This document shows, piece by piece, positions 40,042 through 40,237 of a DNA stretch of 64,000 nucleotides. Origin of the DNA: Octopus vulgaris. Taxonomy: Eukaryota. The position numbers and the translations under genes were made by a program. The notes beneath the pieces are model-generated. The model saw nothing but the letters and a program-made list of their open reading frames with translations, searched no databases and was not told the origin of the DNA. Each line of letters starts with the position of its first letter. The first letter of the stretch is position 1. The stretch covers positions 83,700,001 to 83,764,000 of the forward strand of contig OX597819.1 in the NCBI GenBank assembly GCA_951406725.2, given 5' to 3'.

Positions 40042-40231
40042 GGTCCCGGGTTGAGTCGGGGTTAACCACAGTAAATAAGGTACTCAATACATAGCAGAGT
40101 AAATTAATTTATTATATAGAAGGAGCTTCTACAGGACTAGAACTGTTTCATTCAAAAGAAATCATCAGGAAGCTCCTGATGATTTCTTTTGAATGAAACA
40201 GTTCTAGTCCTGTAGAAGCTCCTTCTATATA

Positions 40232-40237
<6 letters not shown>
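40039..40237 (-). mobile_element. Palindromic dual-hammerhead element, copy A
   Basis: Perfect 64-bp inverted arms 40107-40170 / 40174-40237, each with CUGAUGA...GAAA-CAG/CUG-UA; 68-bp unique tail 40039-40106; (TA)n on both sides. Confidence 0.85.

What the first reader, a model, noticed from the sequence alone, without database searches (positions are those of the whole stretch)
40107..40237. Palindrome arms match within a copy but differ between copies
Seen: copies A and B differ at three arm positions (CTGATGA vs CTGAAGA; TTCTTTTG vs TTCTCTTG; CAGTTCTAG vs CAGTACTAG), and every difference is present symmetrically in both arms. The 36134 copy has a third combination. All three changes fall at tolerant hammerhead positions (N7, loop II, loop III). 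Inference: the second arm is re-templated from the first at each insertion (fold-back priming at the GAAGCTTC centre) or homogenised by cruciform repair, and the ribozyme fold is under selection.
Basis: partly seen in the sequence, partly recalled or inferred. Interest (0 to 1): 0.75.

Follow-up and report, generated by a model that had tools for sequence, protein, structure and literature searches.

The report
Twin-primed Penelope retroelement palindromes
These mirror-image repeats are short stubs of a very abundant Penelope-type jumping gene whose two halves nearly always match within a copy, likely because both were copied from the same RNA source onto the two cut DNA ends in one insertion rather than by folding back; the shape is known, but the copies help test how it forms.

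Summary
The palindromes are head-to-head stubs of a young Hydra-clade Penelope-like element (intact 713-aa RT-endonuclease ORF found): an inverted pLTR, a direct pLTR with a type I hammerhead and a one-sided ~70-nt tail, in (TA)n. That architecture, and self-priming as its cause, are in print (PMC3846280). The data fit simple fold-back poorly: the tail lies on the shorter arm in 32 of 59 short and 10 of 25 long asymmetric insertions. Cruciform repair is unnecessary: arms up to kilobases apart also match, and private changes are one-armed 37 to 3. Best reading (inferred, about 0.65): both target ends prime on the same RNA source, at two start sites, run off near a likely transcription start and anneal through AGCT. 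Corrections: copy B's arms differ by one base, and the 36134 copy has one arm. No sign of in vivo ribozyme cleavage. The scan noted the same architecture before, in this genome and others.

The parts
40038..40106 (-). Copy A tail (69 nt): the sequence that follows the hammerhead at the 5' end of the full element; present on one arm only
   Evidence: tail on exactly one arm in 100 of 100 sampled palindromes
40107..40174 (-). Copy A tail-side arm: pLTR end starting at AGCTT (likely transcription start), with a complete type I hammerhead at 40174-40124; predicted cut between 40130 and 40129
   Evidence: (all 13 stem pairs Watson-Crick, -7.3 kcal/mol when constrained), layout as
40174..40237 (+). 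Copy A tail-less inverted arm, 4 nt shorter at its 5' end, ending in the (TA)n target
40170..40174 (.). Junction of the two arms (GGAAGCTCC type, 27 of 100 sampled; the loop-less GGAAGCTTCC type is 39 of 100)
40008..40037 (.). (TA)n target flank, left of copy A
40238..40460 (.). (TA)n-rich target flank, right of copy A; a target-site duplication cannot be told inside the repeat
50195..50262 (-). Copy B tail-less arm (N7 = A, loop II TCTT, loop III TACTAG), intact hammerhead
50259..50325 (+). Copy B tail-side arm, same three variants, one G missing between 50303 and 50304 (real or sequencing error, undecided)
   Evidence: tests
50326..50395 (+). Copy B tail (70 nt), followed by (TA)n
36134..36200 (-). 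Copy C: single tail-less arm (N7 = T, TCTT, TTCTAG)
36201..36206 (+). Copy C: 6-nt stub of the second arm running into (AT)n; the rest likely lost by deletion or assembly collapse
   Evidence: cause inferred

Best explanation
The palindromes are 5'-truncated, head-to-head insertions of a Hydra-clade Penelope-like retroelement, and their arms likely match because both are reverse-transcribed from the same RNA source in one two-ended (twin-primed) insertion. Shown: family, anatomy, arm concordance, one-sided tail on either the longer or the shorter arm, junction hot spot. Inferred steps: (1) transcription starts at the A of AGCTT, 29 nt after a TATAAAT box; (2) the protein cuts both strands of (TA)n and each end primes reverse transcription, one at the tail end (about 138 nt from the start) and one at the tail start (about 68 nt); (3) in short copies both cDNAs run off the RNA 5' end and end in the self-complementary AGCT, through which they anneal; in long copies they stop independently and join at other short matches; (4) repair fills in the second strands. 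Whether one RNA molecule or two transcripts of one source copy serve as template is not resolved.
For: Family: 7,648 exact matches to a 32-nt arm motif; intact 713-aa ORFs in L122 and L123 flanked by this hammerhead and tail, tandems and inverted 5' arms from ~50 bp to 3.9 kb. Concordance: 1,208 of 1,216; 31 of 31 minus/plus pairs 0.2-10 kb apart share the upstream variant (read by eye from the first 100 rows). Tail on exactly one arm in 100 of 100 short and 31 of 32 long insertions. Tail arm longer 27, shorter 32, equal 41 of 100; long insertions longer 15, shorter 10, unclear 7 of 32, e.g. L126 with a 1.0-kb tail arm against a 5.3-kb tail-less arm, L133 with 0.13 against 4.9 kb. Loop-less junctions on self-complementary words: 39 of 100 short, also L137 and L068. 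No arm of the 100 reached beyond the A of AGCTT (the search pattern limits the gap to 8 nt); TATA-to-AGCTT 29 nt. 4 of 6 restarts re-enter through the AGCT of stem I. 3 of the 8 mixed copies differ at two or more linked sites (L143, L146, L148), as two templates would give. Fits PMC11167929: a Penelope protein cuts and extends both strands, is predicted to be a dimer, and starts at two sites that bound the tail.
Against: No intermediate was observed; all steps are read from end products. A fold-back intermediate with tails on both arms, later trimmed at random by the endonuclease (PMC8557442 ascribes the tail to endonuclease resolution), would also put the tail on either arm. The GGAAGCTCC junction (27 of 100, including copy A) could be a 3-nt-loop fold-back. 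Mixed copies are rare (8 of 1,216) and could come from gene conversion or point mutation. The transcription start is inferred from a TATA box and truncation points, with no RNA 5' ends. Short-read support for the palindrome centre is thin: exact contigs cross it in 3 of 4 runs but with 15 and 25-28 nt on the two sides, below the 31-nt rule.
Confidence: 0.65

Rival explanations
1. Self-priming (fold-back): the first cDNA, or an antisense template, folds on itself at the junction and is copied back, and the endonuclease then trims the tail from one arm.
For: Explains near-perfect concordance at once; proposed for Penelope elements in PMC3846280; 27 of 100 junctions have a 3-nt loop geometry.
Against: In its simple form the primed, tail-bearing strand must be the longer arm, yet the tail is on the shorter arm in 32 of 59 and 10 of 25 cases; 39 of 100 junctions have no loop; 3 copies carry arms of two subfamilies. 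One-armed deletions lie on the longer arm in 7 of 15 cases, but these may be sequencing errors and are given little weight.
Confidence: 0.25
2. Arms are homogenised after insertion by cruciform or hairpin repair or gene conversion.
For: Perfect 130-bp palindromes in (TA)n could extrude cruciforms (established knowledge); 3 private substitutions are shared by both arms.
Against: 37 private substitutions are one-armed against 3 shared (part of the 37 may be sequencing error); arms separated by kilobases match at least as well (0.36%); the family is young, so matching needs no repair.
Confidence: 0.04
3. The 200-bp palindrome is itself a mobile unit (a MITE-like or retrozyme-like element) copied whole.
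For: More than 1,200 near-identical short copies.
Against: Junctions are varied (20 classes in 100), arm lengths run continuously up to 3.9 kb into the ORF, and each variant would have to arise in both arms separately.
Confidence: 0.04
4. The palindromes are assembly or read fold-back artefacts.
For: The sequencing platform is not known here; recurrent one-armed G deletions are confined to tight palindromes (28 of 200 arms against 0 of 87), which looks like a read-error signature.
Against: Flanks on the two sides are unrelated, the tail is one-sided, junctions recur at one site in over 1,200 loci, and exact short-read contigs cross the centre in runs of three studies (short overhangs).
Confidence: 0.02

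Closest known systems
Hydra clade of C-terminal endonuclease Penelope-like elements (Craig et al. 2021, PMC8557442), including Hydra-1_Obim of Octopus bimaculoides
   Same: Single ORF with RT then C-terminal endonuclease, DKT, YRDDG, CxCX5C linker, CxxC and CxH motifs, canonical hammerhead near the 3' end with CUGANGAU...UGAA core, (TA)n targets, 5'-truncated inverted copy.
   Different: RWR instead of RWK; unit about 5.2-5.5 kb against under 3 kb, owing to a microsatellite-filled 3' UTR; 8-nt loop III against 1-3 nt in the listed Hydra hammerheads; hammerhead sequence unlike that of Hydra-1_Obim, so a different family; thousands of young copies.
Penelope insertions with inverted pLTR, junction palindrome and optional tail (Pen2a_Av and others, Arkhipova et al. 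2013, PMC3846280)
   Same: Head-to-head inverted pLTR overlapping the direct one, tail on one of the two, palindrome at the junction.
   Different: Tail about 70 nt against 31; no readable target-site duplication; that paper reads the palindromes as self-priming, which the tail placement here fits poorly.
Poseidon element PAc of Anolis in vitro (Frangieh et al. 2024, PMC11167929)
   Same: Two reverse-transcription start sites bounding the tail, AT-rich target, hammerhead just upstream.
   Different: Other clade; ORF there starts inside the hammerhead, here 182 nt after AGCTT; the parts read do not derive the inverted arm from two-ended priming.
L1 twin priming (recalled, not from a call)
   Same: Both ends of the cut target prime on the element RNA and give an inversion.
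   Different: L1 inversions do not duplicate sequence; here both arms hold the same hammerhead region.
Non-LTR retrozymes (10.64898/2026.07.22.740005; part 1 of 5 read)
   Same: Short, non-coding, type I hammerhead, derived from PLE pLTRs.
   Different: Retrozymes are head-to-tail tandems; these are head-to-head stubs of an autonomous element.

Membership tests
Penelope-like elements, Hydra clade | Single ORF with RT and C-terminal GIY-YIG-type endonuclease | tested here: met
   713-aa ORFs in L122, L123 with YRDDG and a C-terminal YIG region; Pfam gives no hit for this protein, but its 41%-identical relative P0037 passes GIY-YIG at the aligned place
Penelope-like elements, Hydra clade | DKG modified to DKT | tested here: met
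   SDKTKN
Penelope-like elements, Hydra clade | N-terminal RWK motif | tested here: inconclusive
   RWR at the aligned column; relatives have RWK or RWR
Penelope-like elements, Hydra clade | CxCX5C linker; CxxC and CxH in the endonuclease | tested here: met
   CNCHDKTTC, CDLC, CMH
Penelope-like elements, Hydra clade | Canonical hammerhead in the pLTR | tested here: met
   Core and three stems present, same layout as File S2 rows; Rfam finds no match and the free fold is not better than shuffles
Penelope-like elements, Hydra clade | Insertion into (TA)n | tested here: met
Penelope-like elements, Hydra clade | Short element (under 3 kb; a general trait, not a strict one) | tested here: not met
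   Tandem period about 5.2 kb, unit 5,455 nt in L123
Penelope-like elements, Hydra clade | Placement in the clade by RT phylogeny | not tested
   Published Hydra proteins were read in the supplement and agree motif by motif by eye; they were not aligned or put in a tree
EN+ PLE insertion architecture | Tandem pLTR, inverted 5'-truncated copy, tail at one end | tested here: met
EN+ PLE insertion architecture | Target-site duplication | tested here: inconclusive
   Both flanks are (TA)n, so none can be read
Active hammerhead ribozyme | Self-cleavage after the NUH triplet | not testable with these tools
   Indirect tests blank: copies ending at the cut 5, at a control site 5; restarts at the cut 0 of 6, one 2 nt short
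Non-LTR retrozymes | Head-to-tail tandem of short hammerhead units | tested here: not met
   Short copies are head-to-head; only 6 short tandem restarts found

The most novel reading that the evidence does not exclude
Penelope-like elements integrate by obligatory two-ended priming: a dimer primes both target strands on one RNA at the two tail boundaries, so every insertion gets exactly one tail, and the inverted pLTR is a second first-strand cDNA, not a fold-back. At the boldest, the one-armed G deletions beside the hammerhead cut are reverse-transcriptase scars from crossing a cleaved ribozyme, and host A-to-I editing of the cut-site A tunes the ribozyme.
Probability: 0.3. Interest if true: 0.75.

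Novelty: new member of a known kind. Interest (0 to 1): 0.45.

Why it matters
How Penelope-like elements make their tandem and inverted structures is named as an open problem in PMC8557442. This family gives over 1,200 young palindromes with diagnostic variants, a simple rule (one tail, either arm) that separates the models, and intact ORFs for reconstitution. It also means that more than a thousand 60-bp perfect hairpins are scattered through this genome, which are likely substrates for RNA editing when transcribed. The element type and the architecture themselves are not new.

Tried and rejected
Rfam: 0 matches at gathering in the window and none relevant by E-value. Pfam: no relevant family for the ORF. 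One-armed deletions of G41 and G44 beside the hammerhead cut (15 and 14 events) first looked like scars of cleavage; they occur in 28 of 200 arms of tight palindromes but 0 of 87 arms with upstream sequence (Fisher P = 4e-5), and 29 of 30 examined double-G deletions (161 genome-wide) sit in tight palindromes; a read-error origin cannot be excluded, and laying contigs neither confirmed nor excluded them, so they are not used as support. Published error excesses at inverted repeats are small (up to about 1.6-fold, PMC10519405 passages), which leaves the question open. No excess of copies ending at the cut (5 against 5) and no restart peak there. No RNA holder is listed on record; the RNA label of runs X1 and X7 is a guess. 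The first arm-length test by BLAST (20 against 11) was spoiled by microsatellites and replaced. A longer pattern for both arms plus tail could not be run, so the sample of 100 came from two junction patterns (first 50 loci each, contigs C1-C2), which fixes N7 concordance and the junction place in that sample. Look-up of earlier findings by sequence was empty. Five paper searches listed no paper that tests arm concordance or proposes twin priming for Penelope inverted arms; subscription papers and bioRxiv supplements were not visible.

Full report
Observation. Copy A at 40107-40237 is a perfect palindrome of 64-bp arms around a 3-nt spacer. A second palindrome (B) lies at 50195-50325 and a one-armed copy (C) at 36134-36206. 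A and B differ at three arm positions and each difference stands in both arms, as reported. B's tail-side arm lacks one G, and C has only a 6-nt stub of a second arm. A and B each carry a further ~70 nt on one side only, and all three sit in (TA)n.

Scale. The window lies in a 2.8-Gb genome of 227 contigs. A 32-nt arm motif has 7,648 exact matches. Among palindromes with intact inner motifs and a junction gap of 1-8 nt, 612 have T at N7 in both arms, 596 have A in both, and 8 are mixed; random pairing would give about 608 mixed. In the first 50 loci of each class, concordance at loop II, loop III and a site outside the ribozyme was 91 of 93, 88 of 89 and 74 of 75. Divergence is 0.8% within copies and 4.0-4.1% between copies, whichever arms are compared (92 of 100 used).

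What it is. Pairs of opposite matches also occur kilobases apart. One such locus, L067, holds RT and endonuclease fragments; a protein search found 150 scored matches of 15,221 candidates and intact 713-aa ORFs in L122 and L123. The unit is hammerhead, tail, short leader, ORF, a 2.3-3.3 kb microsatellite-filled 3' UTR and the hammerhead again; it occurs in tandems and with an inverted 5' arm. DKT, CxCX5C, CxxC, CxH, (TA)n targets and the hammerhead layout match the Hydra clade of PMC8557442 (section 11; supplement rows); RWK is RWR here and the unit is longer than usual. Relatives at about 40% identity are many (1,081 of 7,993 scored; alignment). The supplement lists a Hydra family from Octopus bimaculoides with a different hammerhead. 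The host is probably an octopus (recalled from the repeat landscape; not tested).

The ribozyme. The arm reads stem I AGCUUC, core CUGANGA, a U-U pair, 3-bp stem II with a 4-nt loop, GAAA, 4-bp stem III with an 8-nt loop, GUA, GAAGCU; all 13 stem pairs are Watson-Crick. All 5 subfamily variants fall in N7 or the loops (P = 5.5e-4), which supports conservation, without covariation. The fold is weak and competes with a hairpin over the cut site. Nothing shows cleavage in vivo: copies ending at the cut are no commoner than at a control site (5 and 5), and restarts use the AGCT match, not the cut.

How the arms come to match. Repair after insertion is not needed: in 32 long two-armed insertions the HHR-side 100-220 nt differ at 23 of 6,403 sites within and 2,847 of 97,403 between insertions, 31 of 31 distant pairs share an upstream variant (by eye), and private substitutions are one-armed 37 to 3. 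So the arms match from birth. The tail separates the birth models. It is on exactly one arm in 100 of 100 short and 31 of 32 long insertions. A cDNA primed at the tail that folds back must be the longer arm, but the tail is on the shorter arm in 32 of 59 short and 10 of 25 long asymmetric cases (41 equal and 7 unclear set aside); in L126 the tail-less arm holds 4 kb, including most of the ORF, that the tail arm lacks. The commonest junction is a loop-less palindrome on AGCT (39 of 100), as two identical cDNA ends would give by annealing. Three of the 8 mixed copies differ at linked sites. The junction hot spot is the A of AGCTT, 29 nt after TATAAAT, the usual TATA-to-start distance (established knowledge), so short arms likely end where the RNA begins. 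PMC11167929 (parts 1-2 of 4 read) shows a Penelope protein cutting and extending both strands from two start sites that bound the tail. Together these favour two-ended priming on one RNA source (0.65). Fold-back followed by random trimming of one tail stays possible (0.25).

A clue set aside. One-armed deletions of G41 and G44, next to the predicted cut, are frequent (28 of 200 arms) but confined to tight palindromes (0 of 87 elsewhere; 29 of 30 examined). In a head-to-head palindrome the second arm of any long read is read in sense, so a read error would look like this (inference). Contigs did not decide it. If real, 22 one-armed against 3 two-armed cases, 7 of 15 on the longer arm, would argue further against fold-back.

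Artefact check. Exact contigs cross the palindrome centre in 3 of 4 runs, with 15 and 25-28 nt on the two sides, short of the 31-nt rule; one of the runs may be the assembly's own sample. Unrelated flanks, the one-sided tail and the recurring junction make a fold-back artefact unlikely.

Known and new. Inverted pLTR, junction palindrome, optional tail and self-priming are in PMC3846280 (passages) and PMC8557442 (passages); hammerheads in pLTRs, including pairs on opposite strands 100-700 bp apart, in PMC4209133 (part 1 of 4). A recent octopus repeat annotation counts Penelope families; its main text has no match for palindrome or ribozyme (PMC13282606, passages). Five searches listed no test of arm concordance. 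Earlier notes of this scan, seen only after my tests, reach similar readings in this genome and others; they are not independent support. Verdict: a new, young family of a known kind, with useful evidence on an open mechanism. Interest 0.45.

Noticed in passing
window 5369-5425: A 26-bp-arm palindrome at the 5' end of a SINE-like repeat (label recalled); this exact structure occurs once in the genome, so it is a one-off inversion, not a family.
   Followed up: yes
L127:7258, 7261, 7269 (also 7318, 7321, 7331): Runs X1 and X7 (RNA only by guess) show sense-strand A-to-G at three hammerhead adenosines, one the cut-site A, at 2-12% of summed contig depth; DNA-like X10 shows none and X8 at most 0.06%. 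Looks like A-to-I editing; no matched DNA. The three As lie just 5' of the three Gs that are deleted in palindromes.
   Followed up: partly
L087 (about 170 nt) and L306 (about 245 nt): Sequence not matching the element lies between the two inverted arms, as if captured at the junction.
   Followed up: no
L143, L148: The tail-side arm looks chimeric: hammerhead 5' part of one subfamily, tail of another.
   Followed up: partly
L137 (G000:C5:22928000-22937900): A 7.8-kb near-perfect palindrome, each arm 3.9 kb with part of the ORF, joined at a self-complementary hexamer.
   Followed up: partly
L127, L128, L131, L136: Many young full-length copies share a frame break that ends the ORF after the RT (506-aa frames), so an endonuclease-less lineage seems to be moved in trans.
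   Followed up: no
L149, L154, L157, L216, L234, L337, L349, L350, L354, L356: Short restarts at the junction: a piece of the arm's 5' end is repeated, as if reverse transcription jumped back after reaching the RNA end.
   Followed up: partly
window 26574-26830 and 50605-50861: A 257-nt inverted repeat pair at 88% identity, 24 kb apart, probably two copies of another repeat.
   Followed up: no
window 35880-36400: The microsatellite-like flanks of copy C resemble each other in inverted orientation.
   Followed up: no
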